A stretch of 64,000 bases of DNA from Escherichia coli (GCF_030013595.1 NZ_CP122769.1), one strand, 5' to 3'. Positions 21,371 to 43,943 are shown, counted from the first letter of the stretch. Numbers and translations: made by a program. Notes: generated by a model not told the origin, from the sequence alone.

Positions 21371-21455
21371 AATTTTCCTCGTACGGCTGGTACGGCCAGC
21401 AGAAAACGTTGCTGTACAGAAAGGTGCTGCCCGGAAAGCAGCACCTTTCTGTCTG

Positions 21456-22097
21456 TCAGAGCACCAGCTGGATTTCTGGTGGAGGAGGGGGAAGGGTATC
21501 AGTTCCGTTATTGATCCCCGCGCTTGTGCTGCCGGAAGACACGCTGGCCGATACCCATTTAAAGAAACCTGCAAACGCGGTTGAATCTAGCGTCTCCAGA
21601 GACACAACCTTATCGGTGAGCTGTTTTAAGTGCTCATGGCCTGCTTTAGGACCAACGGCGCAGGCAATGATGGATCCGAATCCCCGGCCGCGAATCGCTT
21701 TTACCGCTTCACCGTACGCCAGGGCATCAGAAGGGGTTCCATCAGTCATCAGGAATACCAGAGGACGCCAGTCTCCTTTTGTATCACCATCTGAGCGACG
21801 TACATCCCGTTCAACACACTGCATCAGACATTCAAGGGCAGCACCGGTGAACGTCCCGCCTGCGCTTGGCACAACGATGTCAGAAAACTGGAAGTCTTCC
21901 AGCGGCGTGAGAGGAATGAACTCACGCGCCTCATTGTCATAGGTGATAATGGAGATATGAACGCTTTCGAGGGCGTAGGGATCCTGGCGAAGAGCGCTAA
22001 GCATCGCCTGAATTCCAACGTTAACGGAATGGATGGACTCACCGCGCATCGAGCCGGATGTGTCGATAACAAGGTAAACAGGCAGGCGGCGCATCAC
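21456..22097 (-). CDS. terY: TerY (vWA domain) tellurite-resistance-associated protein
   Basis: MRRLPVYLVIDTSGSM MIDAS motif; 213 aa. Confidence 0.85.
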   Translation of the reverse strand: MMRRLPVYLVIDTSGSMRGESIHSVNVGIQAMLSALRQDPYALESVHISIITYDNEAREFIPLTPLEDFQFSDIVVPSAGGTFTGAALECLMQCVERDVRRSDGDTKGDWRPLVFLMTDGTPSDALAYGEAVKAIRGRGFGSIIACAVGPKAGHEHLKQLTDKVVSLETLDSTAFAGFFKWVSASVSSGSTSAGINNGTDTLPPPPPEIQLVL

Positions 22098-22735
22098 ATG
22101 TAATTCCTCAGGTGCGAGACAAACGAATCTGATTCTGAAGGCTCACCAATTGCCCTGAGTTTCCAGCCTGTAGCCTCGCGTATCAGCTCGGCAAAAACCA
22201 TGGAGCGCTGGCTGGCGAAGGCGGGTCCGCCAGAAAGATCGAATCGTGCCATTTCAATATTACGGGCATCTACTGCCCGGATGAAGGCATTCTGAACTTT
22301 ACCAAAGTGCTGCTGGAGCTTTTCACCATTGTAGATCTGAACGATGAACACAATTTTCTCGTACTGAGCGTCAAGGGAATTCAGGCGCACAATAATTTGC
22401 TCATCGTCACCATCACCGGCTCCGGTTCGGTTATCGCCCGTCAGCCAGATATTTCCTGACTTATGGCGAAGGCTGTTGAAAAAGATGATATCGCCATTCA
22501 CAAGCGTTGGTTTACCATTTTCCACATTGCCGAGATCGGTCACCTTTCCGGCTGAATTACACAGGAAAGCGATCACATCAAGGTCGTATTCTTCTTCTTT
22601 TTTACCAAAGATCCCGCCGAGGAAACCTTTCTTTTCCTCATTAATATCCCAACCCAGGCCGATAGTAACGGACGAGAGATCGTATTCATTTTTTTTCAGG
22701 CTTACGCCCTGGCCTTTGCTCAGACTGACAGACAT
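22094..22735 (-). CDS. terX: TerX (TerD-family) protein
   Basis: TerD-domain signature GDNRTGAGDGDDEQI; 213 aa. Confidence 0.85.
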   Translation of the reverse strand: MSVSLSKGQGVSLKKNEYDLSSVTIGLGWDINEEKKGFLGGIFGKKEEEYDLDVIAFLCNSAGKVTDLGNVENGKPTLVNGDIIFFNSLRHKSGNIWLTGDNRTGAGDGDDEQIIVRLNSLDAQYEKIVFIVQIYNGEKLQQHFGKVQNAFIRAVDARNIEMARFDLSGGPAFASQRSMVFAELIREATGWKLRAIGEPSESDSFVSHLRNYM

Positions 22736-22757
22736 GACATCCCCTTAATTAATAAAA

Positions 22758-23396
22758 TTATAAGACCACGTTTACTTCTGGCGGCGGCGGTGGCAGGTCT
22801 TCAAGACCGATCACTTCTTTTTTGCTGGACTCCACTTTCTGACTGCCTACCGAAATGCTCGCACTGACCCATTTAAAGAAAGCTTTAATCGTCGAACTGT
22901 CAGCTGTATCGAGCTGAACCACGATTTCAGTGATTTCTTTGAGGACGCTGGTATCGGCATCATGCCCGGCTGCACATGCCACAACAACGCCGGTTCTGGC
23001 CGCTTTAAAGTCATTCAGGCCTTTACGCCAGTCATCATTCGGACTTCCATCCGTCATCAGGAATACAAGGGGACGCCAGTCACCTTTAGTGTCAGCCGTC
23101 GTTTTCTGTACTTCTTTGGCAATGGAGCTGGCCGTCAGGGTAAGCGCTGCGCCAAGAGAGGTGGTGCCGCTGGCTGTTAGTGCTGGCATCTGGAAACTCA
23201 GGAGGTCTGTCAGGGGGACTGCCTGTCGGGCTGAAGAATCAAAGGTGATCACTGACACGTAAGCCGTTTCGAGTGCATACGGATCCTGTTTCAGCGTGGT
23301 AAGCAGCGTCTGAACGCCATTCTTAACCGCTTCGATAGGCTCTCCGTGCATAGAGCCGGACGTGTCGAGTAGCAGATATACGGGTAAGCGTCTCAA
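22758..23396 (-). CDS. terY: TerY (vWA domain) protein; probable TTG start
   Basis: LRRLPVYLLLDTSGSM; TTG at 23396 preceded by aaggaa RBS gives an N-terminus like the paralogues (the ATG-based ORF extends to 23477). Confidence 0.75.
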   Translation of the reverse strand: MRRLPVYLLLDTSGSMHGEPIEAVKNGVQTLLTTLKQDPYALETAYVSVITFDSSARQAVPLTDLLSFQMPALTASGTTSLGAALTLTASSIAKEVQKTTADTKGDWRPLVFLMTDGSPNDDWRKGLNDFKAARTGVVVACAAGHDADTSVLKEITEIVVQLDTADSSTIKAFFKWVSASISVGSQKVESSKKEVIGLEDLPPPPPEVNVVL

Positions 23397-23859: not shown

Positions 23860-24327
23860 TCAGGACTTTTTAGCGCTGTATTCTTTTATCAGTTCATCAA
23901 CGGAGTGCAGAGCCAGCTTCTCTACCGCTTCACTTCGGGTCGAGCCACTCAGCGCAGCCAGACGGTCAATTTTTCTTAAAATCCGCATGCGTAGCGATAA
24001 TGACACGGCTGTTTTTTTATCCTTATCGAGTACGACCTTCCCTGTGGACTCACCGGTTTTCAGTTCAGCATTCTGTGCGAGCGCTTCATTCATCCGGCGA
24101 AGGGTCTTTTTATCCAGCTGGCCCGGATTAACGAGATGGTAGGAATGACCTGCCTTGCTGTATTTGATCTCCGCAGAATATGACTCGCGTAGCTCTTTGA
24201 GTGCCCGGGTTAATGTCGGCTCTGAGCATTCCAGACTGGTTATAATGTCGGCAGCGGAAACGGGCTTGCCGGTGCCCAGTAAGTTGGCAAGCTTAAAAAT
24301 CCGGGCCTGTCTGGTATTTAATTGCAT
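23860..24327 (-). CDS. terW: TerW-like DNA-binding protein
   Basis: 155 aa, position downstream of terY-terX-terY matches terW; predicted wHTH N-terminus. Confidence 0.65.
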   Translation of the reverse strand: MQLNTRQARIFKLANLLGTGKPVSAADIITSLECSEPTLTRALKELRESYSAEIKYSKAGHSYHLVNPGQLDKKTLRRMNEALAQNAELKTGESTGKVVLDKDKKTAVSLSLRMRILRKIDRLAALSGSTRSEAVEKLALHSVDELIKEYSAKKS

Positions 24328-24344: not shown

Positions 24345-25553
24345 TTAAAGGGTTAGTGGTTCAATAGGCTGAAAAATGAAGGTACTGCTCATCTTTCGAA
24401 TAACCGGGTGATCGCCTAACGCTTCAACCGGATCAATGTGTTCTAAGCCTGCAAAATTTACTGACGACATCTGGCTGCGACTGCATTTGCAGGACAGGAT
24501 ATACTCATCCTCCAGATAGCCGGTCCGCTTACTGACCCGTTGCGTAAAGCCTGACACAATCACGTTGTCGAACGGTAGCGTATGTAAAACGATACCGACC
24601 AGGCGGAACAAGCAGCCATGGACGTGGCGGGCATAGTTTTCGCGTACGGCTTTTTGCGTCATGGCTTTTTCCGTCAGCTCCGTGCCCCGGGCATTAACGC
24701 CGTAAATCTTATCAGGGAAATCTTCAATCTCAGCTAAATCAACATCCAGCAGGACTGCTGATAGCTCCGGCTTTACTTCAAATGCAACAAGCGTTTCACG
24801 CGGCCATTCAGTTTCTGCCAGCACACCCGCCAGGTATGATTCGAAAAACGCGGCGTCTGTCCGGAACTGCTGCCGGGCATCTGCCTGAGCCGTGGCGAGC
24901 CGTTTTTCATGTTCTTCAGCCTCAAACTTCCAGTTTGCATACTGTTCGGCCCAGGCCGTCCGTTGTTGCTGGTACCGGTGCTGTCGAAGGGTATTCTCAC
25001 GCTCCACATCAATCAGCTCCTGCTGCCACCGGCGAAGATTTTCGGCGTGGCGCTCAGCTTTAGCTGATTCCGATTCAAACCATTTACCCAGAAAACTAAT
25101 GCCTTCGCTCTCGGCAGGCTTTTCCGGCAATGCAAGATAGTCTGGCTTTTCTGGACGCACCGGTGCCGGAACCTGAAAAGGCGACGTTCTGTTATGCAGG
25201 TATACTGCTTCCAGCTCTGCCCAGCTGATGCCTGTTTTAGGATCCGGCGTCAGCTCGTGAATATTACGGATTGCGGTCACCGCTGACATGAGATCAGCGG
25301 CTTCCTCCTCAAGCGCCTGTCTGAGCCCCGGGTCGGTAGCCGTCCGGTTCCCACCTCCGGAACGCGCGGCCCGATCAAGCCGGGTACGGTAACTCAGCCC
25401 GGTACCGGGCAAGCCCAGATTGGCATAGGTCCCCCGGCTTCCAAAAGAAACGGAAGCACCTCTCGGCCCGACACTCAGGCTCGGTGCACCGTTACTCAGG
25501 TTGAGGCGAACACCAGGAATAATGTTGATCGACTTTCTGAATCTGAACCCCAT
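24345..25553 (-). CDS. ter-linked hypothetical protein with DUF4236-like N-terminus
   Basis: N-terminus MGFRFRKSINIIPGVRLNLSNGAPSLSVGPRG characteristic Gly/Ser-rich beta-rich start; acidic/coiled C-terminal half. Confidence 0.5.
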   Translation of the reverse strand: MGFRFRKSINIIPGVRLNLSNGAPSLSVGPRGASVSFGSRGTYANLGLPGTGLSYRTRLDRAARSGGGNRTATDPGLRQALEEEAADLMSAVTAIRNIHELTPDPKTGISWAELEAVYLHNRTSPFQVPAPVRPEKPDYLALPEKPAESEGISFLGKWFESESAKAERHAENLRRWQQELIDVERENTLRQHRYQQQRTAWAEQYANWKFEAEEHEKRLATAQADARQQFRTDAAFFESYLAGVLAETEWPRETLVAFEVKPELSAVLLDVDLAEIEDFPDKIYGVNARGTELTEKAMTQKAVRENYARHVHGCLFRLVGIVLHTLPFDNVIVSGFTQRVSKRTGYLEDEYILSCKCSRSQMSSVNFAGLEHIDPVEALGDHPVIRKMSSTFIFQPIEPLTL

Positions 25554-25563
25554 TATGATTTCC

Positions 25564-26523
25564 TTAATGATGCTGGGTCACGGTAAGTAATCTGATTCCA
25601 TCAGCGCTTTGCTCGTTCTGTAACCCATAAAAACGAGCTCTGTCCAGAATGCCAGCCGCCCAGCGGCGATGTGTGGCGGGTTCACACATTGCTCCCTGCG
25701 ACTTAAACACGGCCTGGGTAGAGTTCAGGATCCGCAGAGCGTCAGAATGCTCACCCTGAGTGACCATCAGCGCGTTTTGAATGACCTCTATCTGACCCGG
25801 GTGAATGGCCGTTTTCCCAACAAGCCCATGTGCCATATCAAGAGCCAGCTCTCTGGCCATTACGGCATGATCGTCAATATGCTCACATACGGGCGCGGTC
25901 AGGGCAAAATCACGCGGGCCGAAGACCGAAACGAGCATTTTGATGACGTAGCCCATCGGGCTGTCATACAGCGTCAGGTCCCGGGGACGGCGAAGCGACA
26001 CAACGTTCATAAGATCGTTGCCGCCGATTCGAAGCGCAATAATGCGGTCGTGGCAGGGATGTTCCACCAGACGGGTGGCCAGCTCCCGCATCTGAACCAC
26101 GTCAAAGACGTCTTCTGTTTCCAGCGTTGGCATCATGCACAGGTGAGTCCCGCCCATGATATCCCACCATTCAGCTAACGAACTGAGGGTAAATTTCGGC
26201 AACACAAACCCGTCGACAGCGGAAAGATCATAATGCGCTTTTAACCATCTGCCCATTTCGGCATGCCGGGGGCGAATGAACACCAGAGGCCAGTCATTTT
26301 TACCCAGGCTATGCATGCTGTTACTGAGCTCGTGCAGCAGGTGCTCCAGATTTTTGAGGGCGACGGGGATGTCTGCTTCACTGACAGCATCCTCCAGGCA
26401 AATCACCAGAGAGCGCAAACCCGGGATTTTCCCGTGCAGGACGGCATCAGCAATATCTTCCCGTGTTGCAGGCATGTATAGCGTGGCTCCCAGATTCCAG
26501 GGAGAAAGACGATTTTTCATCAA
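25564..26523 (-). CDS. HpcH/HpaI aldolase / citrate-lyase beta (CitE)-like TIM-barrel enzyme
   Basis: Overall CitE-like pattern (..FIRPRHAEMG.., ..LETEDVFD.., ..RIGGNDL..); ATGA overlap with upstream gene. Confidence 0.65.
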   Translation of the reverse strand: MMKNRLSPWNLGATLYMPATREDIADAVLHGKIPGLRSLVICLEDAVSEADIPVALKNLEHLLHELSNSMHSLGKNDWPLVFIRPRHAEMGRWLKAHYDLSAVDGFVLPKFTLSSLAEWWDIMGGTHLCMMPTLETEDVFDVVQMRELATRLVEHPCHDRIIALRIGGNDLMNVVSLRRPRDLTLYDSPMGYVIKMLVSVFGPRDFALTAPVCEHIDDHAVMARELALDMAHGLVGKTAIHPGQIEVIQNALMVTQGEHSDALRILNSTQAVFKSQGAMCEPATHRRWAAGILDRARFYGLQNEQSADGIRLLTVTQHH

Positions 26524-27599
26524 AGTACCTTCTTGATAATGGTTACAGCCCGATACTGGCCGAGGGTTCCCCCCATTTCTGTAACAACTATTCCCTTTTC
26601 ACGAGCAAGCCCTACAAGCAAGGCAACGTCCGGGTCGTCAATAGAACGCACAAATACATGGTCCGGTACCCGACGTAATACAGCCCGGGTTGCTTCAGCA
26701 ATACCGGGTTTTATACGATTGACGCTGTCCACTTTAAATTCATCGGCCAGGAACGCGATAACGTCGCGACTTGTCTGCCATAAGATCCGGGCTGACTCCG
26801 TATTCCAGCTCAGGGGAGCGAGGGATGACGGGGTTAACTTCTTACGGAAATGAGCGACGGTATCGACAAGCATCCGGCTGCATTCGAATTCACTGAGATG
26901 CTCGCAAACCATGCACCCGTGTAATCCTTCAGAGGACCACACTGACCGGGAGATCAGGCCTGACACCGGCGCACCCATGATGCCAAAAGGAATGAGCCAG
27001 TCATCATCACTGGCTGCAAGCCAGGAGCAGCCACAGGGATCGGCCAGGACAACCAGTCGCGGCTGCTCAGGATAGCCCGGGCGATCTTTCAGTGCGCGTA
27101 CAAGCTCTCCGGTAATTGCGCCTTTACCTGTCCATCCGTCAACAAAGACAATACCGCTGGTACCATGCCGCTCTTCAATGACGTCGAGGGCTGCACCGTC
27201 AATTCCACGATCCCGGATAATGCTGATACCGTAATGCCATGAGGTTTTCCCCATGTCACGCAGGGCCTGGTGCAGCATAACGCCGAGCGGCACGCCAGCC
27301 CTGACAAGACTGGCCAGTACAATGGGCTCATCACCAAAGCGTTTGGCCAGAGCAATAGCGAGCTGTGTGACTTCTTTTGCAAGTCTCTCTGCGCCCCGAT
27401 CCAGCGCCCGGTGAAACAAATCAAGATGCCATTGTGTTGGCGCTGGCTCCTGACTGAGCATGTCCGAATAATGTTTCTTCCCTGACTGAATCAGCTCTTC
27501 TTTTTGCTCAACCGGCGTCATCTCAATGACAACCGGCTTTAGCAGAAATTCCACGTCACCGGGCTGGTATGAGCCGGTAAATGTGTCATGTGGCTGCAT
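26520..27599 (-). CDS. ter-linked PRTase-like / StiP-like protein
   Basis: Member of the ter biosynthetic operon; start placed at internal ATG (27599) adjacent to HAD stop. Confidence 0.45.
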   Translation of the reverse strand: MQPHDTFTGSYQPGDVEFLLKPVVIEMTPVEQKEELIQSGKKHYSDMLSQEPAPTQWHLDLFHRALDRGAERLAKEVTQLAIALAKRFGDEPIVLASLVRAGVPLGVMLHQALRDMGKTSWHYGISIIRDRGIDGAALDVIEERHGTSGIVFVDGWTGKGAITGELVRALKDRPGYPEQPRLVVLADPCGCSWLAASDDDWLIPFGIMGAPVSGLISRSVWSSEGLHGCMVCEHLSEFECSRMLVDTVAHFRKKLTPSSLAPLSWNTESARILWQTSRDVIAFLADEFKVDSVNRIKPGIAEATRAVLRRVPDHVFVRSIDDPDVALLVGLAREKGIVVTEMGGTLGQYRAVTIIKKVL

Positions 27600-27600
27600 T

Positions 27601-28374
27601 TTAATTTTCTCCAAAAATTCGCTGTGAAATGGCATCTGCAAACTGACTCTGACGCGGGATGCCAAACCAGCTGCACAGTTTCATAAAACGATGATCGCTC
27701 AGGCTGTCGCCCAGGCCAATTACGGGGAAGACTCCGCGTTCAGCCCGAAGTTTTTCAAGCAGCCATCTGACTGCCAGCCCTTTCTCAACCGGGGTGGGAA
27801 GCCAGGCCACGTTATTACTGTTGCGGTGGATGTAGAAGCCCTCGGTCGGAAACACCGTTTCTATCTCATCTGCAATGGCATTGAGCTCGTCAAGGCGGGT
27901 GCTGTCGCGGTGCTTCATCACCATATAAACCGCCGTTTCACAGTATTCGAAGTTCAGCCTTGCCCAGGCATTGATCCCTTTTGCGTCCATCATTTCAGTG
28001 ATCAGACGCTGCATCGATGTCAGCTTTTCCTGGTAGGGAGCCAGCTGGCCAAGCATATGGGCCTTCCACTCCTCGTCGGGTTTGCCTTCAGGCGTGAGAA
28101 TGACGGCCCCGTGCGTGGTGATTGCCCAGGAGTGGAAAGGGATCCGGACGCGGCTGATTTCTTCAGTTCCCCGGGCGGTAACAGGTATGAGTTCAGCCTG
28201 CTCCAGGAGCCAGTCCACCAACATGGACTGTTCTTCCGTCATAAAGCTTCGTGGATTCAGGGTGCGATCAACGGCACCGGTACGGAATGGCTCCAGGGCC
28301 AGCTCGTCCACCATTTTACGACGGGTCTGAAAGAGCGTGTCGTCAAGGTCGCTCAGAACAACGGGTTTATTCAT
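27601..28374 (-). CDS. HAD-superfamily phosphatase
   Basis: HAD motif I VVLSDLDDTLF; start at internal ATG (MNKPVV) because the longer ORF overlaps the upstream PRTase by about 340 nt. Confidence 0.7.
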   Translation of the reverse strand: MNKPVVLSDLDDTLFQTRRKMVDELALEPFRTGAVDRTLNPRSFMTEEQSMLVDWLLEQAELIPVTARGTEEISRVRIPFHSWAITTHGAVILTPEGKPDEEWKAHMLGQLAPYQEKLTSMQRLITEMMDAKGINAWARLNFEYCETAVYMVMKHRDSTRLDELNAIADEIETVFPTEGFYIHRNSNNVAWLPTPVEKGLAVRWLLEKLRAERGVFPVIGLGDSLSDHRFMKLCSWFGIPRQSQFADAISQRIFGEN

Positions 28375-29515
28375 AGGTAACAATCTCCACGACGGGCGCA
28401 ACCTCAGCCAGGGCTTTAAGAAGCTGCGTGTCAATACTTTCTGCGGGTGTCTCAGTACACACAAGAATACGGTCAAACTGCTGGTGGGCGACGTTATAGA
28501 CAAAATTGGGGATGCCCAGCCCGTAGTTATCCGTAAAGGAAATGGCGGACTCAATGGCATAACCAACGGCGATAGGGGAGCGGGTGGTCGAACCATAAAG
28601 TGCCTGTGCTCCGGCAGCTTCGAGCCGTTCAGCAAGCAGGAACGGCTCCCAGACGAATTCCCCGGTCCCGAGAACCAGAATACGTTCCCCCTTGCGGACG
28701 GAGACCTCATGGCCGAGATCGGCCGCAGGTGCGAGCATCCCCAGTCGACCCCAGGACTGTTTTCCCAGGATGTCCCATTCTCCGCGTGAAGTTACGTTGA
28801 CTTTCGGCATGTCCGGGACAGGTGCATCAGGTAATGGGGTCCATCCCCACTGACCGCTTACAAGCGAAACCGAAGTGACGGGCAAGGATGTGCGCTCCGA
28901 CAGGGCGTTGCTACTCCAGTCGGTAAGCGTAACGGCGATAACCTGTTCAATATGTTGAAGCTTGCCGGTATTACGCAGGGCAGAAAGCAGGTTAATAAAG
29001 GTATTACCGGTGGTTGCCTCGTCATCAATCAAAACCAGCGTTCGTGCGTTGGTAACACGACGTCTTTTCTCTTCATCATCTGGCAGATAGATCAGATGAT
29101 CGGTGGCGTGGCTGTGTTCTTCCTTGAACTCGCAAAGTAACGTGCCATCAACCGGGTGACGGGTAGAGGTCAGATAGACAGATTCACGATGCTGGTGGCG
29201 CACTTCATCAAACACACCGGCCCCTAGCCCAACGGCGGTTTCAGCCATACCGATAAAAAGTACGGGCCCTGTCAGCGTTGCGGGGAACTGGCTGGCAAGC
29301 TGTCTGTAGGCCTGCCGCATGACTGAGGGTGGCACGGGAATGTGCCTGCCGAGTACTTTGCTGACAAACAGAAAGGCGCGTTTCGGGTTACGTCTTTCAG
29401 CGATATCAAACAGGTCATCGAGCGAAACATCACCCTGGTCGCGGGTTACCTGTATCGTACCGCATGAGAGGGTACGGCGATAAATCATATCTTCGAGGGT
29501 ATCAGACATAAACAC
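28367..29515 (-). CDS. phosphoribosyltransferase (PRTase) domain protein
   Basis: PRPP-binding motif LVLIDDEATTGNT. Confidence 0.7.
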   Translation of the reverse strand: MFMSDTLEDMIYRRTLSCGTIQVTRDQGDVSLDDLFDIAERRNPKRAFLFVSKVLGRHIPVPPSVMRQAYRQLASQFPATLTGPVLFIGMAETAVGLGAGVFDEVRHQHRESVYLTSTRHPVDGTLLCEFKEEHSHATDHLIYLPDDEEKRRRVTNARTLVLIDDEATTGNTFINLLSALRNTGKLQHIEQVIAVTLTDWSSNALSERTSLPVTSVSLVSGQWGWTPLPDAPVPDMPKVNVTSRGEWDILGKQSWGRLGMLAPAADLGHEVSVRKGERILVLGTGEFVWEPFLLAERLEAAGAQALYGSTTRSPIAVGYAIESAISFTDNYGLGIPNFVYNVAHQQFDRILVCTETPAESIDTQLLKALAEVAPVVEIVTYE

Positions 29516-29518
29516 GCC

Positions 29519-30577
29519 TTAATTCAGATGGTTAGAGAGTGATTCCGGGTAAACGATGACATCTGTGATGGATCTCACTGCAACCGGAGAAAAGGTATTT
29601 CTGGCGCTCTGGATCACCGCATCTTCAGACATCAGACCGAGCTTAAAGGCAGCAAACAACCCGGGAAGGTTCACCCCGCTGTGAAGGGTATAACCCACCC
29701 CGCCTGACGGACGCATGTTGGTTTCAAGCAGCACCGGGTTGCCATTCACATCGTTTCGCGTCTGAACATTCACCAGCCCGTCGGCCTTCATAACCCGGGC
29801 GCAGTCACAAGCCAGTTCCCAGGCGCTTCCTTCGTTTACCAGATACTGGATAGCCCCTTCCTTACGGCGTCCCACGGCTGCGAGTATTTCGCCCTTATCC
29901 GCGAGGATATCGACGGAAAATTCCGGGCCTGGCAGGTACGGCATCAAAACAAGGGGTTTAAACGACTCAGAAGCCGATGCTGCTGCAATATACTGTTGCG
30001 GACTGACCAGACGATGTTCGGGATGATTAAAGACGGCCATGGGCGAAGCACTGTCATCAAAGCGCCAGAATCCCATGCCATAGATACCCGTCACCGGCTT
30101 CACGCATACCGGGCTGTCCGAGAACGGCGGGGCCGCGAGGTGCGTCTTTAATTCTGCCAGCGTATTCACCCGCCAGGACGGTACGACCGGGAGCCCGTTT
30201 TGCTCCATAAACTGAGCAAAAGTAACTTTTTCGTCAGCCAGAGTTAACCAGTCGACGCCTGTTGCACCGGTAGTAAGGGTGGCTCCGGTCGATTCAATGG
30301 CTGAACGGTGTTCTTCAAACCACTGGCTGTTACGGCCAGTATGAATATGGTGGATGCCGTAGGTCTGAATGGTTTCCTGAATAAACTGAAGACGTTTTTG
30401 AGGATCTTCAGGTTCAGTCAAAGAATAATCGGCAACGGAAAGAATTTCATGTCTTTCGTTACGGTGGGAGGCAAATACGGTAATAGCAAAATTATTTTTT
30501 TGTGCAAATGATTTTACCCCCTGAATAATATCTCGCTGGGAGGACAAACCTTCCATAAACCAAATTTTCTTGTTCAT
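29519..30577 (-). CDS. ATP-grasp family ligase
   Basis: First gene of the ter-linked operon; ATP-grasp-like C-terminal region (..PVLLETNMRPSGG..). Confidence 0.6.
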   Translation of the reverse strand: MNKKIWFMEGLSSQRDIIQGVKSFAQKNNFAITVFASHRNERHEILSVADYSLTEPEDPQKRLQFIQETIQTYGIHHIHTGRNSQWFEEHRSAIESTGATLTTGATGVDWLTLADEKVTFAQFMEQNGLPVVPSWRVNTLAELKTHLAAPPFSDSPVCVKPVTGIYGMGFWRFDDSASPMAVFNHPEHRLVSPQQYIAAASASESFKPLVLMPYLPGPEFSVDILADKGEILAAVGRRKEGAIQYLVNEGSAWELACDCARVMKADGLVNVQTRNDVNGNPVLLETNMRPSGGVGYTLHSGVNLPGLFAAFKLGLMSEDAVIQSARNTFSPVAVRSITDVIVYPESLSNHLN

Positions 30578-30899
30578 TTTTTTTAATTATCCGGAACGCC
30601 ATGCAAATTTATGATTGAGAAGTGAGTCTATGAGTGTCTACGCTACATGTCAATCATAATATGATTAATAACTTCAGTGGTTATGGAGTGCGTCAGTGTT
30701 TTTTTAGTACCTTATAACGTATTGATATTTAAATTAAAAATAGAAAAATGAACACCATGAAAAGGATTTATTTTTGTGTTTTTGAAGAAAACTACCAAAA
30801 TTTCCCTTGTCAGAGAACTTCATCATGATATGATTTTCTTCGTCAGTTACTAAATATACCTTTGATTGTCTCGGTCATTACCATTTTAAGGAATAAAAC
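30578..30899. promoter_or_regulatory. AT-rich divergent promoter region between biosynthetic operon and terZ
   Basis: 322-bp AT-rich non-coding spacer between divergently oriented operons. Confidence 0.5.
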
Positions 30900-31481
30900 A
30901 TGGTTTCATTAGTTAAGAACCAGACGGTATCACTCAGCAAAGAATCAGCTGCATTAAGCCAGCTTCATTTCGGTCTCGGTTGGGATCCGGTTAAGAAAAA
31001 AGGTCTTCTTGGAGGATTGTTTGGAGGCAACGACTCAATCGATCTCGATGCTGGCTGCGTATTAATGGACAGCACCGGTAAAACAATTGACACCATCTGG
31101 TTCCGCAAACTGGAATCCACCTGCGGCGCTGTTGTGCACAGTGGCGATAACCTGACCGGTGAGGGTGACGGTGACGATGAGGTGATTAAGGTCAACCTCT
31201 CCCGACTGCCTGCAAACGTTGAATACCTGGCGTTTACGGTAAACAGCTTCCGTGGTCAGTCGTTCAATGACGTCGAAAACGCGTTCTGCCGCGTTGTCGA
31301 TCAAACCGGCAAAGAGCTGGCTCGCTACAAGCTGACTGAGCAGGGCTCACATACCGGGATCGTTATTTCTTCGCTGCGCCGTAATAACGGCAACTGGGAC
31401 TTTACCGCCCTTGGCCATGCCTGTCGCGGCCGCACAATTGACGATATGCACTCCGATATCGTTTCAGCGGTTATTCGCTAA
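30900..31481 (+). CDS. terZ: TerZ tellurite resistance protein (TerD family)
   Basis: 193 aa; [13 protein letters not shown] motif. Confidence 0.9.
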   Translation: MVSLVKNQTVSLSKESAALSQLHFGLGWDPVKKKGLLGGLFGGNDSIDLDAGCVLMDSTGKTIDTIWFRKLESTCGAVVHSGDNLTGEGDGDDEVIKVNLSRLPANVEYLAFTVNSFRGQSFNDVENAFCRVVDQTGKELARYKLTEQGSHTGIVISSLRRNNGNWDFTALGHACRGRTIDDMHSDIVSAVIR

Positions 31482-32638
31482 TGAACCTGACGCCGGGGGG
31501 CAATGCCCCCGTTCCAGCCCAGGAGTTGCGGGTCCGGATCACCTCGGGCGGCCAGGTGGATGCTTCGGCGTTTCGCCTGTATGCCGACGGGAAGGTGCAG
31601 GGTGATGCGGACATGGTGTTTTATGGTCAGCCACGTAACGATGATGGTACCGTCAGCCTGGTCAGTGAAGGCCAGTACTCAACCTTTACTGTCGCGCTCA
31701 ACCGGCTGAAACCTGATGTCCAGAAAATTGCGTTCACCGTGACCTGTGACGGTGGGCAGACGGTGTCCGGTCTTCGTAATCTTTCCATCGACGTGGAGCA
31801 AGGGGCTACCGGCCTGGTTAGCGGCAGTGTCGAACTGAGCGGCCGTCAGGAAGCAGCCTTAATTCTGGGTGAATTTTACCGTCGTAATAATGACTGGAAA
31901 TTCCGCTTCGTTGCGCAGGGGTTCAACGGTGGACTTAAACCGCTGGCAGAGCATTTCGGCGTAAATATTGCCGACGAACCGGCTCCCGCAGCCCCGACTC
32001 CTCCGGTTGTAACCCCTCCGCCAGTTGAGACAAAAATCAGCCTGAGCAAGGTATCGCTGACAAAAGAGAAGCCTGCAATCAGCCTGACCAAACGGGATAA
32101 CTTCGGTGAAATCCGGATCAACCTGAACTGGCACCGGGGCAGCGGCAAATCAGGCTTTGCAGGCATGTTCGGCTCCAAAGGAATCGACCTGGATCTGGGG
32201 GCCTTTGTTGAGCTTCAGGACGGGTATAAATCGGTCATTCAGGCGCTCGGTAATGCATTCGGTAATTATCGCGATGAACCGTATGTTCAGCTCAAGGGCG
32301 ATGACCGGACGGGTGATGTATCAGACGGCGAGTGGCTGCATATCAATGGACGTGAATGGAAGCATATCCGCGAAGTGCTGATTTACGCCTTTATTTATGA
32401 AGGTGTTCCCAGCTGGGACAAGACTGATGGTGTGGTCACCATTCATGTGCCGGATCAACCGCCCATTGAGACCCGCCTGACCGAAGGTGAAAACCGTCGC
32501 ACATTGTGCGCCATTGCCAGACTCGTAAACGAAAACGGCGCAATTAAAGTCGAGCGAATTAACCAGTACTTCAAAGGCCAGGACGAAATGGACCGGGCAT
32601 TTGGCTGGGGATTTCGCTGGAGCGCCGGTTCTAAATAA
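31481..32638 (+). CDS. terA: TerA tellurite resistance protein
   Basis: 385 aa with tandem TerD-like domains; 1-nt overlap with terZ stop. Confidence 0.9.
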   Translation: MNLTPGGNAPVPAQELRVRITSGGQVDASAFRLYADGKVQGDADMVFYGQPRNDDGTVSLVSEGQYSTFTVALNRLKPDVQKIAFTVTCDGGQTVSGLRNLSIDVEQGATGLVSGSVELSGRQEAALILGEFYRRNNDWKFRFVAQGFNGGLKPLAEHFGVNIADEPAPAAPTPPVVTPPPVETKISLSKVSLTKEKPAISLTKRDNFGEIRINLNWHRGSGKSGFAGMFGSKGIDLDLGAFVELQDGYKSVIQALGNAFGNYRDEPYVQLKGDDRTGDVSDGEWLHINGREWKHIREVLIYAFIYEGVPSWDKTDGVVTIHVPDQPPIETRLTEGENRRTLCAIARLVNENGAIKVERINQYFKGQDEMDRAFGWGFRWSAGSK

Positions 32639-32660
32639 CACAGCAACAAAGGAAACAGGT

Positions 32661-33116
32661 ATGAGCTTTTTCGACAAGGTAAAAGGTGCCATTAACTCTG
32701 GCCGGGACGAACTGACCCGCCAGGTTGGTCGTTTCAAAAACAAAAAATTTATGCACGGCACCGTTGCTGTATGTGCCCGTATTGCCGTATCGAGTGACGG
32801 CGTGAGTTCGGAAGAAAAGCAGAAAATGATGGGCTTTCTTCGCTCTTCAGAAGAGCTGAAGGTCTTCGATACCAATGAGGTGATCGAGTTCTTCAATAAA
32901 CTGGTTTCAAGCTTCGATTTCGATGTTGAAATCGGCAAGGGCGAAACCATGAAATACATCCTGGCGCTGAAAGATCAGCCTGAGGCCGCTCAGCTGGCCT
33001 TACGTGTTGGTATTGCCGTTGCGAAAAGTGACGGTAACTTCGATCAGGACGAGAAACTGGCCTCCCGCGAGATCGCTATCGCGTTGGGCTTCGACCCGGC
33101 TGAATTTGGCCTCTGA
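32661..33116 (+). CDS. terB: TerB tellurite resistance protein
   Basis: 151 aa from ATG at 32661 (MSFFDKVKGAINSG); the ORF-track start at 32601 is an upstream extension. Confidence 0.9.
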   Translation: MSFFDKVKGAINSGRDELTRQVGRFKNKKFMHGTVAVCARIAVSSDGVSSEEKQKMMGFLRSSEELKVFDTNEVIEFFNKLVSSFDFDVEIGKGETMKYILALKDQPEAAQLALRVGIAVAKSDGNFDQDEKLASREIAIALGFDPAEFGL

Positions 33117-33138
33117 TCCACATCCCTAAGGGTAAAAT

Positions 33139-34179
33139 ATGGTTTCCACACACATCGGCTTCCCGACTGAAACGGTCATTGTTTTCATTGCGCTTTCAGT
33201 CGGTGCCATCTTTATTGACCTGTTTATGCACCGTGATGACAAGCCCATTTCCCTGAAGAGTGCGGCGCTCTGGTCCGTATTCTGGGTTGTGGTTGCGATG
33301 GCATTTGCCGGTTTCCTCTACATCCACCACGGTGCTGAGGTTGCCAGCCTGTTTGTAACGGGTTATGCGCTGGAGAAAGTGCTGTCGGTCGACAACCTGT
33401 TTGTCATGATGGCCATCTTCTCCTGGTTCGCCGTTCCTGATCGTTACCGCCACCGTGTTCTCTACTGGGGGATCATTGGTGCCATCGTCTTCAGGGGCAT
33501 CTTTGTCGCCATCGGTACGAGCCTGCTGAGTCTGGGGCCGTATGTTGAAGTTGTCTTCGCTATCATCGTCGCCTGGACGGCGGTCATGATGCTTAAAAGC
33601 GGTGATGACGATGATGAAATTGAGGATTATTCCCAGCATCTGGCTTACCGCATGGTTAAACGCTTCTTCCCTATCTGGCCGAAGCTCAGAGGTCATGCTT
33701 TCCTGCTTAACCAGAAGGAAGTGGATGCCGAACTGGCGAAACCAGAAAACAGCGATGTCACCATTGGCCGTGGTAAAAAGGCGGCGCTGTATGCGACCCC
33801 TCTGTTCCTGTGTGTGGCCGTGGTTGAACTCTCGGATGTTATGTTTGCGTTTGACTCGGTACCGGCAATCATTGCCGTCAGTCGTGAACCGCTTATCGTC
33901 TATAGTGCCATGATGTTTGCTATCCTGGGCCTGCGTACTCTGTACTTTGTCCTTGAAGCACTGAAACAGTACCTGGTTCATCTGGAGAAGGCCGTTATCG
34001 TGCTGCTGTTCTTCATCGCGGCAAAACTGGGCCTGAATGCGACCGATCACATTTGGCATCATGGTTACAGCATCGCGGCGACAACCAGCCTGTATGTTGT
34101 ACTGGGTGTTTTGGCGCTGGGCATTCTCGCAAGCGTCATGTTCCCGGGCAAACCTGAATCTGAGGAAAAGGGGAGCTGA
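33139..34179 (+). CDS. terC: TerC integral membrane protein
   Basis: 346 aa, multiple TM helices. Confidence 0.9.
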   Translation: MVSTHIGFPTETVIVFIALSVGAIFIDLFMHRDDKPISLKSAALWSVFWVVVAMAFAGFLYIHHGAEVASLFVTGYALEKVLSVDNLFVMMAIFSWFAVPDRYRHRVLYWGIIGAIVFRGIFVAIGTSLLSLGPYVEVVFAIIVAWTAVMMLKSGDDDDEIEDYSQHLAYRMVKRFFPIWPKLRGHAFLLNQKEVDAELAKPENSDVTIGRGKKAALYATPLFLCVAVVELSDVMFAFDSVPAIIAVSREPLIVYSAMMFAILGLRTLYFVLEALKQYLVHLEKAVIVLLFFIAAKLGLNATDHIWHHGYSIAATTSLYVVLGVLALGILASVMFPGKPESEEKGS

Positions 34180-34227
34180 TCCCCTGAAGTGTTAACCTGA
34201 ACAATTACTAATCGAAGAGGTTATTTT

Positions 34228-34806
34228 ATGAGTGTTTCTCTTTCCAAAGGCGGGAACGTCTCCCTGAGTAAAGCAGCTCCGTCAATGAAAAACGTCCTGG
34301 TGGGCCTTGGCTGGGATGCGCGTTCAACAGACGGTCAGGACTTTGACCTGGATGCTTCAGCATTCCTGCTGGCCGCAAATGGCAAAGTGCGCGGCGATTC
34401 AGATTTCATCTTCTATAACAACCTGACGTCATCTGACGGTTCCGTAACCCATACCGGTGATAACCGTACCGGTGAAGGTGATGGTGATGATGAATCGCTG
34501 AAAATTAAACTGGACGCCGTCCCGTCTGATGTTGACAAGATCATCTTCGTTGTCACTATCCATGATGCTCAGGCTCGTCGCCAGAGCTTTGGTCAGGTAT
34601 CCGGTGCGTTTATTCGCCTGGTCAATGACGATAACCAGACTGAAGTCGCTCGCTACGATCTGACCGAAGATGCGTCCACTGAGACTGCCATGCTGTTCGG
34701 CGAGCTGTATCGCCACAATGGTGAGTGGAAATTCCGCGCAGTGGGCCAGGGTTATGCTGGTGGTCTGGCATCTGTATGTGCTCAGTACGGCATTAACGCG
34801 TCCTGA
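34228..34806 (+). CDS. terD: TerD tellurite resistance protein
   Basis: 192 aa; [13 protein letters not shown]. Confidence 0.95.
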
Positions 34807-34873
34807 TCGAAAAGTAACTTTTCACCCGGGGCTGTTAATGCAGCCCTCATTCAACTGTTTGCAGGAGCTAAAA

Positions 34874-35449
34874 ATGGCAGTTTCTCTCGTAAAAGGCGGC
34901 AACGTATCTCTGACCAAAGAAGCACCAACCATGAATATCGCTATGGTTGGCCTCGGCTGGGATGCCCGTGTAACTGACGGTCAGGCTTTTGACCTGGACG
35001 CTTCCGTGTTCGCAGTAGGCGAAGACGGTAAAGTGCTGTCAGATGCGCATTTCATTTTCTTCAATAACAAAACCAGCCCTGATGGCGCGGTAGAGCACCA
35101 GGGCGACAACCGTACCGGTGAAGGCGACGGTGACGATGAGCAGGTCAAAATCGATCTGACCAAAGTCTCAGCAGATATCAAAAAACTGGTGTTTGCCGTT
35201 ACCATCTATGATGCAGAAGCGCGTAAACAAAACTTCGGCATGGTGAGCAACAGCTTCATGCGCGTTTACAACAACGACAACGGCACGGAAATTGCCCGTT
35301 TCGATCTGTCTGAAGATGCCTCAACCGAAACCGCTATGGTCTTCGGTGAACTGTATCGTCATGGCGCTGAGTGGAAGTTTAAAGCTGTCGGTCAGGGCTT
35401 TGCCGGTGGCCTGGCGGCTCTTGCCTCCCAGCACGGCGTTAACATCTAA
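34874..35449 (+). CDS. terE: TerE tellurite resistance protein
   Basis: 191 aa from ATG 34874 ([13 protein letters not shown]), RBS ggagc upstream; the ORF-track start at 34670 is an extension. Confidence 0.95.
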
Positions 35450-35466
35450 AACAACGCTGAATCATA

Positions 35467-35491
35467 CCCCGGCAATGCCGGGGTTTTTTTT
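35467..35491 (+). terminator. Rho-independent terminator after terE
   Basis: ccccggca-a-tgccgggg followed by T8. Confidence 0.8.
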
Positions 35492-35877
35492 GGTTGCGAT
35501 CCGCTTTCAGGAGGGAGTAGTAGAAAGGGGACTGGAAATTTCAGAAAGCAGGTCATGTTAATTCAGACCTGAGCCTTTTAAAGGCAGGAAACGGATTTAT
35601 CTCTGGTTGCTGGTTAAAGCCGGTATTCCGTGCCTTTTATCAACAGAATGCCCCTCTGATATATGTTACTTTTGCGGTTTATGAAGGAACGGGATCTGGA
35701 ACATAAGATACCCGGTCAATCAAAATTCCAGTTCAACAGGTATAGAAACTTCAGCGTGATGAAATATGGTGTCACACCATATATACGCCTCACCAGAAAT
35801 CCAGCGTCCTGAACTAAGCCTGGGGAACATATATAAGCGCTGCGCTTTAAAAATAATCAAAAATCAGGAGAGTTAAT

Positions 35878-37119
35878 GTGAATCTACAATCCGGACAAAA
35901 CATACCGCTTCAGCAATCTGCGATCAGGCTGAATCTTCAGTACCCTGCCAAATCCGGCTTTAAAGGCGAACCCGATACCTGCCTCTTCCTGCTTAATGCT
36001 CAGGGAAAGGTAACCGGCGATTCTGACTTTATCTTTTATAATAATCTGTCTTCTCCTGAAGGGGCAGTAAAGCTCGTTACCGGTTCTCAGCAGTCCAGCA
36101 TTGAGATAGCACTGGATCGTGTTCCGGCGAACGTCAGTAAGATTGCGATCACCGTTGTCATTGATGGTGAAGATACTATCAGTGGGCTCAGTTTATTGAG
36201 CATTCAGGCTCCTGGTATCGCTGATTTTCAGGCTGAGACTCAGGGCCGCAGTGAGAAAGCAATCATCCTGGGTGAAGTATATCGGCACAATGGCGCCTGG
36301 AAGCTTCGTGCGCTCGGGCAGGGTTTCAACGGTGGTCTTGAGCCTCTGGCCATTAGCTTTGGCGTTGATGTCGCACAGCCAGCTCCGCAGCCAGCAAAGC
36401 CCGCTCGTATCAGTCTGGAAAAGAAACTTGAAACCAGATCTCCGCGCCTCGTAAGCCTCGCTAAAAAAGCCTCGGTCAGTCTCACTAAAAATAAACTGGA
36501 CACCCTTGAGGCAGCGGTTGCATTTGTACTTGACGCATCCGGCTCAATGAGTGGCCAGTTCAGTAAGGGCAACGTTCAGTCTGTGCTGGACCGCATCGCC
36601 GTTCTTGCCGCCCAGTTCGACGACGACGGTGAAATGGATGTCTGGGGATTTGGAGAGAAGCACAAGAAGTATCCAAACGTCACACTGGACAACCTGGACA
36701 CATATATTCAGTCCATTCGCGGGTCTGGAAAGCGTTCAGCCTGGGAGAACCTGCCGGGACTTGGTGGGACAAACAATGAGCCCCCTGTGATGGAAGAAAT
36801 TGTCGACTACTTTAAGGACTCGAAAATCCCGGTATATGTTGTATTTATTACCGATGGCGGGATCAGCAAGACCCGGGCGATTAAAGATGCAATCCGGCGT
36901 TCTGCCAACTACCCCATCTTCTGGAAGTTTGTCGGCCTGGGTGGTTCAAGCTACGGTATCCTCAAAAATCTGGATGACTTTACTGACCGCCGGGTTGATA
37001 ACACCCACTTCTTTGCCATGGATGATTTCGGTTCGATCAGCGATGAAAAGTTATATGATAATTTACTGGAAGAATTCAGACCGTGGATCGATGAAACAAA
37101 AAGGTTAGGCATCCTGTAA
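35878..37119 (+). CDS. terF: TerF (TerD-domain + vWA domain) protein
   Basis: 413 aa; N-terminal TerD-like domain, C-terminal vWA (VLDASGSM); GTG start with aggag RBS. Confidence 0.8.
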
Positions 37120-40299: not shown

Positions 40300-40303
40300 C
40301 GAT

Positions 40304-43667: not shown

Positions 43668-43943
43668 GTGGCTTCTGTTTCTATCAGCTGTCCCTCCTGT
43701 TCAGCTACTGACGGGGTGGTGCGTAACGGCAAAAGCACCGCCGGACATCAGCGCTATCTCTGCTCTCACTGCCGTAAAACATGGCAACTGCAGTTCACTT
43801 ACACCGCTTCTCAACCCGGTACGCACCAGAAAATCATTGATATGGCCATGAATGGCGTTGGATGCCGGGCAACCGCCCGCATTATGGGCGTTGGCCTCAA
43901 CACGATTTTCCGCCATTTAAAAAACTCAGGCCGCAGTCGGTAA
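43668..43943 (+). CDS. insA: IS1 InsA
   Basis: 91 aa, [23 protein letters not shown]. Confidence 0.95.

What the first reader, a model, noticed from the sequence alone, without database searches (positions are those of the whole stretch)
30900..37119. Complete terZABCDE plus terF with strong terminator after terE
Seven ter genes are intact with canonical lengths. terF (TerD + vWA fusion) is a separate unit after a terminator (35467-35491) and uses a GTG start. ter islands on such plasmids are linked to tellurite, colicin and phage resistance.
Basis: partly seen in the sequence, partly recalled or inferred. Interest (0 to 1): 0.3.

Follow-up and report, generated by a model that had tools for sequence, protein, structure and literature searches.

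The report
Known IncHI2 plasmid tellurite-resistance operon
[quoted passage not shown] The only refinement is that a conserved terminator separates terE from a more variable terF.

Summary
Seven intact genes lie at 30900-37119 on the + strand: terZ 193 aa, terA 385, terB 151, terC 346, terD 192, terE 191 and terF 413. All carry the expected Pfam domains. An intrinsic terminator follows terE (8-bp stem at 35466-35484, then T8). It is the only site of that strength in the 64-kb window, and none appeared in 100 shuffles. terF starts at GTG 35878, behind an AGGAG ribosome-binding site.

The 6.6-kb stretch is 100% identical to many IncHI2 plasmids, and 702 plasmid records are at least 99% identical. 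The window matches Salmonella plasmid NZ_CP117034.1. This is the published IncHI2 "ter-type 2", so it is already known. The other half of the island (terW, terY1-X-Y2-Y3, kinase/PP2C and a biosynthetic module) lies divergently at 17168-30577.

- **Terminator:** the hairpin stem is invariant in five of six diverged ter lineages although loop and flanks differ.
- **Downstream of terE:** this part is variable. It is a 428-nt spacer here, 87 nt in Klebsiella, an extra gene in one Enterobacter plasmid, a truncated terF in O157 and an IS4 with no terF in a deer strain.
- **terF:** it diverges far more than terZ-E.
- **"Separate unit" claim:** not proven. No promoter is predicted in the spacer, and two lineages leave no room for one. 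The terminator is probably leaky and keeps terF expression low.

Interest is low.

The parts
30807..30834 (+). Promoter-like site upstream of terZ (TTGTCA-16-TATGAT, extended TG); putative terZABCDE promoter
   Evidence: 10 of 12 matches. This is a consensus match only, and function is inferred.
30900..31481 (+). terZ, 193 aa, TerD-fold protein with an intact acidic (Ca2+) loop
   Evidence: (TerD, 157.9 bits)
31481..32638 (+). terA, 385 aa. The N-terminal TerD domain lacks the acidic loop and the C-terminal domain is a degenerate TerD fold. The start overlaps the terZ stop (TAATG).
32661..33116 (+). terB, 151 aa (ATG 32661, not the TTG at 32601)
   Evidence: TerB, 74 bits; 2JXU, residues 1-151
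33139..34179 (+). terC, 346 aa, integral membrane protein of the TerC/Alx family
   Evidence: TerC, 145 bits; TIGR03718, 360 bits
34228..34806 (+). terD, 192 aa, TerD-fold Ca2+-binding protein
   Evidence: 294.5 bits; 2KXT, E 2.7e-122
34874..35449 (+). terE, 191 aa, TerD paralogue (ATG 34874, not the upstream ATG 34670)
   Evidence: (286 bits)
35466..35492 (+). Intrinsic terminator: 8-bp stem ACCCCGGC/GCCGGGGT, loop AAT, T8
   Evidence: unique in 64 kb, 0 of 100 shuffles; stem invariant in five lineages
35493..35877 (.). terE-terF spacer specific to the IncHI2/O157 lineage. It has no gene, no known RNA and no predicted + strand promoter. It contains a palindrome at 35764-35782 and the terF ribosome-binding site AGGAG at 35866-35870.
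35878..37119 (+). terF, 413 aa, GTG start. It is a TerA-like TerD domain fused to a vWA domain with MIDAS residues.
   Evidence: (vWA-TerF-like 233.8 bits, TerD 121.4 bits)
24345..30577 (-). Divergent biosynthetic module: ATG-grasp-type ligase gene (ATP-grasp) 29519-30577, PRTase 28367-29509, HAD-like 27601-28374, StiP+PELOTA 26520-27599, TIM-barrel C-C lyase 25564-26520, DUF4236 24345-25553
23863..24327 (-). terW, 155 aa, with weak HTH-type hits
   Evidence: (AMRFinder terW, 100%)
20330..23396 (-). terY1 (vWA) 22758-23396, terX (TerD) 22094-22735, terY2 (vWA) 21456-22094, terY3 (vWA+TerY-C) 20330-21370
17168..20330 (-). PP2C phosphatase 18693-20330 and protein kinase 17168-18667. Together with terY3 they form a TerY-P-like triad.

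Best explanation
The region is the terZABCDE-terF half of the IncHI2 plasmid tellurite / phage-inhibition / colicin-resistance island (published 'ter-type 2'). It is intact and identical to widely circulating plasmids.

Inferred transcription: a sigma-70-type promoter about 65 nt upstream of terZ drives a tightly packed terZABCDE mRNA. The terZ stop and terA start overlap as TAATG, and the other gaps are 22, 22, 48 and 67 nt. The mRNA ends, mostly, at a strong conserved intrinsic terminator 16 nt after the terE stop.

terF is a TerA-like TerD domain fused to a vWA/MIDAS domain. It lies 428 nt further on, has a GTG start, and is most likely expressed at a low level. That expression would come from terminator read-through and/or a weak spacer promoter. 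terF is an accessory, separately evolving module.

Inferred function, from family knowledge and the literature: TerC is a TerC/Alx-family inner-membrane divalent-metal transporter and forms the membrane anchor. TerB, the Ca2+-binding TerD-fold proteins TerD/TerE/TerZ, and TerA/TerF (whose TerD domains lack the Ca2+ loop) assemble on it. Together they form a metal-sensing, envelope-stress-tolerance complex. This complex indirectly limits tellurite damage, pore-forming colicin action and phage multiplication. The biochemical mechanism is not known.
For: **Shown here**
- Seven intact ORFs with TerD, TerB, TerC and vWA-TerF-like domains far above the Pfam cut-offs.
- TerC scores 360 bits against TIGR03718 TerC/Alx, whose cut-off is 246.
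- TerD and TerB align end to end with solved K. pneumoniae structures 2KXT and 2JXU.
- The stretch is 100% identical to IncHI2A-typed plasmids, and 702 records are at least 99% identical.
- The terminator is unique in the window and absent from shuffles. Its stem is invariant in five of six lineages whose loop and flanks differ.
- A promoter-like site TTGTCA-16-TATGAT with an extended TG lies at 30807-30834.
- The acidic loop [13 protein letters not shown] is present in TerZ/D/E/X and deleted in TerA-N and TerF-N. These two are each other's closest paralogues (45% identity, E 8e-43).
- TerF carries the MIDAS residues DASGS...T...D.
- terF diverges much more than terZ-E. Amino-acid identity is 68% against 89-97% versus Klebsiella, and 86% against 96-100% versus pEB3_IMP1.

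**From the literature**
- IncHI2 carries ter-type 2 (PMC8193136).
- terBCDE are essential and terF dispensable for tellurite resistance (PMC8123226). A terZABCDE-deltaF clone keeps the wild-type MIC (PMC11003894).
- Insertions in terZ/C/D abolish the Te, Phi and PacB phenotypes, while insertions in terE/F have no effect (PMC12054061, citing Whelan 1995).
- A Klebsiella terC deletion loses tellurite, Zn and Mn resistance and part of its phage resistance (PMC12054061).
- TerC is needed for tolerance to envelope-active stresses (PMC9933665).
- TerC-family proteins export or metalate with Mn (PMC10550928).
Against: - No transcript data were available, so the promoter, terminator efficiency and the source of terF expression are all inferred.
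- No + strand promoter is predicted in the spacer.
- The proposed complex and its link to the three phenotypes rest on published two-hybrid, localisation and in-silico work, not on a demonstrated biochemical mechanism.
- PADLOC models do not recognise any of the seven proteins as a catalogued defence system.
Confidence: 0.9

Rival explanations
1. terF is a fully independent transcription unit. The terE terminator stops essentially all transcription, and a promoter inside the 428-nt spacer drives terF. The perfect palindrome at 35764-35782 might act as its operator.
For: - The terminator is strong and conserved.
- The spacer is long enough to hold a promoter.
- A perfect 9+1+9 palindrome lies 96 nt upstream of the GTG and is unique in the window.
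- An IS1 insertion in the spacer of pEC361_1 leaves terF intact with about 260 nt upstream.
- terF has a separate evolutionary history.
Against: - No sigma-70-like site is predicted on the + strand of the spacer.
- Spacer divergence from O157 (86.6% identity) matches third-codon-position divergence of terE (85.9%), so the spacer looks neutral.
- The palindrome is imperfect in O157.
- Klebsiella and pEB3_IMP1 leave no room for a promoter after the same terminator.
Confidence: 0.3
2. terZABCDEF is one seven-gene operon, as most papers write it. The hairpin would act mainly as a 3' stabiliser or processing site with little termination.
For: - The literature treats terZABCDEF as 'the ter operon' and assumes that terC mutations are polar on terDEF (PMC8115787).
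- There is no room for a promoter downstream of the hairpin in two lineages.
Against: - An 8-bp stem with 7 G-C pairs, a 3-nt loop and U8 is a textbook efficient intrinsic terminator.
- It is unique in 64 kb.
- Everything downstream of it is evolutionarily variable or lost.
- Published operon names for Yersinia stop at terE (PMC4633105).
Confidence: 0.15
3. The primary, selected function of the island is dedicated anti-phage defence, with tellurite resistance as a by-product. Ter proteins would sense infection at the membrane. The divergent module would make a nucleoside-like effector and signal through the TerY/PP2C/kinase triad.
For: - Phage inhibition maps to terZ, terA, terC and terD (PMC12054061, citing Whelan 1995).
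- A Klebsiella terC mutant gives larger plaques (PMC12054061).
- A vWA+TerY-C / PP2C / kinase triad is present at 17168-21370. TerY-P-like triads work as stand-alone defence systems (PMC11090510, citing Gao 2020).
- ATP-grasp, PRTase, HAD-like, C-C lyase and StiP/PELOTA genes lie next to terZ.
Against: - No PADLOC model matches any of the seven Ter proteins or the triad beyond weak generic kinase hits.
- The published phage effects are modest.
- ter also confers metal and envelope-stress phenotypes and gut fitness without phage (PMC8115787, PMC9933665).
Confidence: 0.25

Closest known systems
ter cluster of IncHI2 plasmids (R478 prototype; 'ter-type 2' of Nguyen et al. 2021, PMC8193136)
   Same: Same replicon type (IncHI2A), gene order, gene lengths and divergent terW/terXY/biosynthetic half. 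The sequence is 100% identical to many deposited IncHI2 plasmids.
   Different: Nothing of substance. A second plasmid lineage (e.g. pEh10_1, about 95% identical across the terE-terF junction) shares the GTG start. It differs downstream of terF, where homology ends about 46 nt into the next ORF.
E. coli O157:H7 chromosomal ter island (OI-43/48, 'ter-type 1')
   Same: Same order and lengths for terZ-E, same terminator, and a 422-nt spacer.
   Different: terF starts with ATG and is truncated to 128 aa, followed by a transposase remnant and iha. Identity falls along the operon from 99% at terZ/A to 86% at the spacer and terF.
Klebsiella pneumoniae plasmid ter locus (pNDM-MAR / pK2044 type)
   Same: Same seven genes, with terF again 413 aa. 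The same hairpin stem ACCCCGG/CCGGGGT follows terE.
   Different: Nucleotide identity is only 66-86%. The terE-terF gap is 87 nt, terF starts with ATG, and a HAD hydrolase gene lies downstream of terF.
TerC/Alx/MeeF-MeeY metal exporters
   Same: TerC here passes the TerC/Alx subfamily model TIGR03718.
   Different: It sits mid-operon, 22 nt after terB. No yybP-ykoY Mn riboswitch or any other Rfam family is found in the window. It works together with TerB and TerD-fold partners.

Membership tests
terZABCDEF tellurite-resistance operon (IncHI2 / R478 type) | Seven co-oriented genes in the order Z-A-B-C-D-E-F, with TerD, TerD, TerB, TerC, TerD, TerD and TerD+vWA domains | tested here: met
   All domains score far above the Pfam gathering cut-offs.
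terZABCDEF tellurite-resistance operon (IncHI2 / R478 type) | Near-identity to annotated ter loci on IncHI2 plasmids | tested here: met
   100% identity over 6601 nt to many IncHI2A plasmids, and 702 records at 99% or more.
terZABCDEF tellurite-resistance operon (IncHI2 / R478 type) | Divergently linked terW, terY1-X-Y2-Y3 and ATP-grasp/PRTase biosynthetic module | tested here: met
   These genes lie at window 17168-30577 on the - strand.
terZABCDEF tellurite-resistance operon (IncHI2 / R478 type) | Confers tellurite resistance, phage inhibition and colicin resistance | not testable with these tools
   Phenotypes are known only from the literature on homologous clusters (PMC12054061, PMC8123226, PMC11003894).
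TerD-fold Ca2+-binding proteins (PF02342; PDB 2KXT) | Acidic loop [13 protein letters not shown] | tested here: met
   The loop is present in TerZ, TerD, TerE and TerX. It is not met in the N-terminal domains of TerA and TerF, which have a 7-residue deletion and no acidic run. That this loop binds Ca2+ is recalled from the 2KXT structure paper and was not tested here.
TerC/Alx family membrane metal transporters (TIGR03718) | Score above the curated cut-off over the full length | tested here: met
   360 bits against a cut-off of 246.4, covering residues 10-336.
vWA domain with MIDAS site (TerF C-terminus, PF10138) | vWA-TerF-like domain plus the DxSxS...T...D motif | tested here: met
   (233.8 bits). 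The residues DASGS, GGT and TDG were read from the translation.
Rho-independent (intrinsic) terminator | G+C-rich stem, 3-8 nt loop and a U-tract of at least 7 directly downstream | tested here: met
   Termination in vivo is not testable here.
TerY-P anti-phage triad (Gao 2020 type) | vWA (TerY) + PP2C phosphatase + Ser/Thr kinase encoded together | tested here: met
   vWA+TerY-C at 20330-21370, PP2C at 18693-20330, kinase at 17168-18667.
TerY-P anti-phage triad (Gao 2020 type) | Recognised by defence-system profile HMMs (PADLOC) | tested here: not met
   Only weak generic kinase hits appeared. The validated systems have an OB-fold on the kinase (PMC11090510), which was not examined here.
Catalogued anti-phage defence systems (PADLOC-DB 2.0) | Any of TerZ-F matches a defence model | tested here: not met
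   No hits at E <= 0.01.

The most novel reading that the evidence does not exclude
The hairpin after terE is a conserved leaky terminator. It sets a fixed high ratio of TerZABCDE to TerF and marks a recombination boundary. Downstream of it, a variable accessory slot is exchanged between lineages: terF alone, an extra membrane gene plus terF, a truncated terF, or nothing. In the IncHI2/O157 lineage a 340-nt lineage-specific spacer with a palindromic site may have made terF independently regulated.
Probability: 0.35. Interest if true: 0.2.

Novelty: already known. Interest (0 to 1): 0.08.

Why it matters
The ter island is a widespread, clinically associated accessory locus on IncHI2 resistance plasmids, EHEC islands and Klebsiella virulence plasmids, and its biochemical mechanism is still unknown. 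This copy adds nothing new, because it is sequence-identical to hundreds of deposited plasmids. The small practical point concerns experimental design. Papers usually treat terZABCDEF as one operon and assume polarity onto terF. A conserved strong terminator lies between terE and terF, and terF is the variable, dispensable part. Both facts should be considered when designing mutants and complementation constructs.

Tried and rejected
- **Relic gene in the spacer.** I asked whether the 428-nt terE-terF spacer is a decayed copy of the 216-aa gene found at that position in E. hormaechei pEB3_IMP1. tblastn and blastn gave only chance-level matches (best E 0.15-0.4). Rejected.
- **Structured RNA or known RNA family in the spacer.** Fold z-scores are -1.5 (+ strand) and -2.4 (- strand). 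Rfam gave nothing at gathering threshold. The E-value scan gave only sub-threshold hits on the hairpin itself. Rejected.
- **Repeated or mobile element in the spacer.** It is single-copy in 1193 plasmids and always lies between terE and terF. Rejected.
- **Selective constraint on the spacer.** Identity to O157 is 86.6%, close to terE third-position identity of 85.9%. There is no sign of constraint.
- **Palindrome 35764-35782 as a shared operator.** It has no second copy in the window and is imperfect in O157. Left as unexplained and probably chance.
- **Long antisense ORFs inside terC (288 aa) and terA/terB (212 aa).** The terC one has 5 stops in the Klebsiella homologue. Spurious.
- **PADLOC search of the seven Ter proteins.** No hits.
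- **Whelan 1995 (PMC177279).** It could not be read, so its statements are cited second-hand.
Full report
**1. Observation**

ORF listing shows seven uninterrupted + strand reading frames between 30900 and 37119. Two mechanical ORFs begin too far upstream: terB from TTG 32601 and terE from ATG 34670. The real starts are ATG 32661 and ATG 34874. This follows from the RefSeq annotation of a 100% identical plasmid and from end-to-end alignment with solved structures: TerB 2JXU over residues 1-151 and TerD 2KXT over 1-192.

The final coordinates are:

| Gene | Coordinates | Length (aa) |
|---|---|---|
| terZ | 30900-31481 | 193 |
| terA | 31481-32638 | 385 |
| terB | 32661-33116 | 151 |
| terC | 33139-34179 | 346 |
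| terD | 34228-34806 | 192 |
| terE | 34874-35449 | 191 |
| terF | 35878-37119 | 413 |

These lengths equal those annotated in E. coli O157:H7, K. pneumoniae pNDM-MAR and E. hormaechei pEB3_IMP1.

Pfam gives the following:
- TerD for TerZ, TerA, TerD, TerE and the N-terminus of TerF.
- TerB for TerB, and TerC for TerC.
- vWA-TerF-like (233.8 bits) for the C-terminus of TerF.

TerC passes the TerC/Alx subfamily model, with 360 bits against a cut-off of 246.

**2. Terminator and GTG start**

The hairpin ACCCCGGC-AAT-GCCGGGGT at 35466-35484 is followed by T8. It folds at -19.9 kcal/mol with z = -3.0. The generic terminator scan as a whole is at chance level: 10 sites found against 9.9 expected. 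I therefore ran a strict scan requiring a perfect 8-bp stem, at least 6 G-C pairs, a 3-8 nt loop and at least 7 T in 8. The terE site was the only hit on either strand of the 64-kb window. None of 100 dinucleotide-preserving shuffles contained any hit.

The terF GTG at 35878 lies 7 nt after AGGAG (35866-35870). The overlapping ATG at 35876 runs straight into TGA. The Pfam TerD profile aligns from residue 1. The homologous codon is ATG in O157, Klebsiella and pEB3_IMP1, and GTG in pEh10_1. The start position is thus anchored by homology, and the GTG is a lineage trait.

**3. Where the window comes from**

The 6.6-kb stretch is 100% identical to many IncHI2A-typed plasmids of Salmonella, E. coli, Klebsiella and Yersinia. 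In total 702 plasmid records are at least 99% identical. The tested parts of the window (1-25000 and 39001-64000) match Salmonella enterica plasmid NZ_CP117034.1, at 100% identity to the reported precision. Its annotation maps one-to-one onto window coordinates. Nguyen et al. 2021 (PMC8193136) classify the IncHI2-borne operon as 'ter-type 2'.

**4. The rest of the island**

These genes lie divergently from terZ on the - strand:

| Gene or product | Coordinates |
|---|---|
| ATP-grasp | 29519-30577 |
| PRTase | 28367-29509 |
| HAD-like hypothetical | 27601-28374 |
| StiP + PELOTA | 26520-27599 |
| TIM-barrel C-C lyase | 25564-26520 |
| DUF4236 | 24345-25553 |
| terW (weak HTH hits) | 23863-24327 |
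| terY1 (vWA) | 22758-23396 |
| terX (TerD) | 22094-22735 |
| terY2 (vWA) | 21456-22094 |
| terY3 (vWA + TerY-C) | 20330-21370 |
| PP2C phosphatase | 18693-20330 |
| protein kinase | 17168-18667 |

The 322-nt A+T-rich divergent region holds promoter-like sites in both directions. The + strand site is TTGTCA-16-TATGAT with an extended TG at 30807-30834. The - strand site is TTGACA-17-TAGACT at 30653-30625.

**5. Operon anatomy**

The terZ stop overlaps the terA start as TAATG. The other gaps are 22, 22, 48 and 67 nt, which fits one transcript with translational coupling. This is an inference.

**6. Is terF a separate unit?**

I compared six ter lineages:
- The hairpin stem ACCCCGG/CCGGGGT and the T-run are invariant in five of them: the window's IncHI2 plasmid, pEh10_1, O157, Kp pNDM-MAR and Eh pEB3_IMP1. 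The loop varies (CAATG, CCTGT, TGCTGTCA) and so do the flanks.
- In the sixth, a deer 'type 4' chromosome, an IS4 element has inserted inside the 3' arm and terF is absent.

What lies downstream of the hairpin varies by lineage:
- A 428-nt spacer then terF, here and in pEh10_1.
- The same spacer with an IS1 inserted, in pEC361_1.
- A 422-nt spacer and a terF truncated to 128 aa, in O157.
- Only 87 nt in Klebsiella.
- An extra 216-aa membrane-protein gene whose ATG sits 14 nt after the T-run, then terF, in pEB3_IMP1.

Divergence is mosaic:
- Against O157, identity falls from 99% (terZ/A) through 96% (terC) and 94% (terE) to 86-87% (spacer and terF).
- Against pEB3_IMP1, terB and terC are 99.6-99.7% identical but terF is only 78%.
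- Against Klebsiella, TerF is 68% identical at the protein level, compared with 89-97% for TerB-E.

terF is therefore a separable, less constrained module, and the terminator marks the edge of the conserved core.

An independent terF promoter is not supported, however. None is predicted on the + strand of the spacer. None is predicted anywhere on the + strand of the Klebsiella terE-terF region. In Klebsiella and pEB3_IMP1 there is physically no room for one after the terminator. My preferred reading is a leaky terminator that keeps terF, already weakened by its GTG start, at low dosage. An independent spacer promoter in the IncHI2/O157 lineage remains possible.

The literature usually writes 'terZABCDEF operon' and assumes polarity onto terF (PMC8115787). 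I found no transcript mapping in the accessible papers.

**7. The spacer itself**

- It holds no relic of the pEB3_IMP1 gene.
- It gives no Rfam hit and no unusual fold.
- It is single-copy and unannotated in 1193 plasmids.
- Its divergence is neutral-like.
- A perfect palindrome, ATATGGTGT-C-ACACCATAT at 35764-35782, is unique in the window but imperfect in O157. It remains unexplained.

**8. Protein-level details**

TerZ, TerD, TerE and TerX keep the acidic loop [13 protein letters not shown]. From memory of the 2KXT structure paper, this is the Ca2+ site. The N-terminal TerD domains of TerA and TerF share a 7-residue deletion there and are each other's closest paralogues (45% identity, E 8e-43). 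The C-terminal domain of TerA is a degenerate TerD fold. The vWA domain of TerF keeps the MIDAS residues DASGS...T...D.

**9. Mechanism**

Established from the literature:
- terBCDE are required and terF is dispensable for tellurite resistance (PMC8123226, PMC11003894).
- Insertions in terZ/C/D abolish tellurite, phage and colicin resistance. terA insertions affect only phage inhibition. terE/F insertions have no effect (PMC12054061, citing Whelan 1995).
- terZA are toxic without terW (PMC4633105, citing Whelan 1997).
- Klebsiella terC contributes to Te, Zn, Mn and phage resistance, and the operon is Zn-inducible (PMC12054061).
- TerC supports tolerance to envelope-active stress (PMC9933665) and gut fitness (PMC8115787).
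- TerC-family proteins export or metalate with Mn (PMC10550928).

Inferred: a TerC-anchored complex of TerB and TerD-fold proteins senses or buffers divalent cations at the inner membrane. It raises envelope-stress tolerance and so indirectly gives the three classical phenotypes. TerF and the TerY proteins (vWA domains), with the PP2C/kinase pair, add a signalling layer. The neighbouring enzymes may make a nucleoside-like metabolite, as Anantharaman et al. 2012 proposed (cited in PMC12054061 and PMC11090510). No PADLOC model recognises any of the Ter proteins or the triad.

**10. Verdict**

The sequence is identical to hundreds of public plasmids and the system is a textbook one. It is already known and of low interest. 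The only added value is the comparative evidence that the terE terminator is conserved and that terF is a variable accessory gene, probably dependent on read-through.

Noticed in passing
L004 6259-6909 (E. hormaechei pEB3_IMP1): An extra 216-aa predicted membrane protein with no Pfam family lies between the terE terminator and terF. Its ATG is 14 nt after the T-run. No relic of it exists in the window's spacer.
   Followed up: partly
L008 about 6225-6320 (E. coli deer isolate, 'ter-type 4'): An IS4-family element is inserted inside the 3' arm of the terE terminator hairpin, and terF is absent. Type 4 strains are reported to have lower tellurite MICs (PMC8193136).
   Followed up: partly
window 35764-35782: A perfect 9+1+9 palindrome, ATATGGTGT-C-ACACCATAT, lies 96 nt upstream of terF. 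It is unique in the window and imperfect in O157. It could be an operator or chance.
   Followed up: partly
window 37210-37341: This annotated 43-aa CDS shares only its first 46 nt (100% identical) with a 151-aa ORF that follows terF in pEh10_1. After that, homology stops. This marks a recombination breakpoint at about 37256, the right edge of the conserved ter module.
   Followed up: yes
window 17168-21370 (- strand): A TerY-P-like triad is present: vWA+TerY-C, a PP2C phosphatase and a protein kinase. The architecture matches a class with validated anti-phage members, but no PADLOC TerY-P model hits it.
   Followed up: partly
window 30900-37119 vs L002/L004: Divergence is mosaic. Against O157, identity falls from 99% (terZ/A) to 86% (terF). 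Against pEB3_IMP1, terB/C are 99.6-99.7% identical but terF only 78%. This implies recombination within the operon.
   Followed up: partly
window 33196-34062 (-) and 32321-32959 (-): Long antisense ORFs of 288 and 212 aa lie inside terC and terA/terB. The terC one carries 5 stops in the Klebsiella homologue, so it is spurious.
   Followed up: yes
window 40006-41629: An HTH regulator and a HipA-family toxin pair, followed by an HNH endonuclease gene at 42421-43236 (annotation of the identical plasmid).
   Followed up: no
window 46379-64000: Tn7-like transposition genes (TnsA-N, transposase, ATP-binding protein, TnsD-like) are followed by sil copper/silver resistance genes. Sister plasmids also carry pco here.
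   Followed up: no
window 4775-6744, 43668-44365, 11815-12777, 15346-15558: An IS21 element (istAB), an IS1B copy, a Tus-like replication-terminus-binding protein gene and an Hha/YmoA gene. In sister plasmids such as pSE08-00436-1, an ISApl1-mcr-1 unit replaces the kinase/PP2C region upstream of terY3.
   Followed up: no
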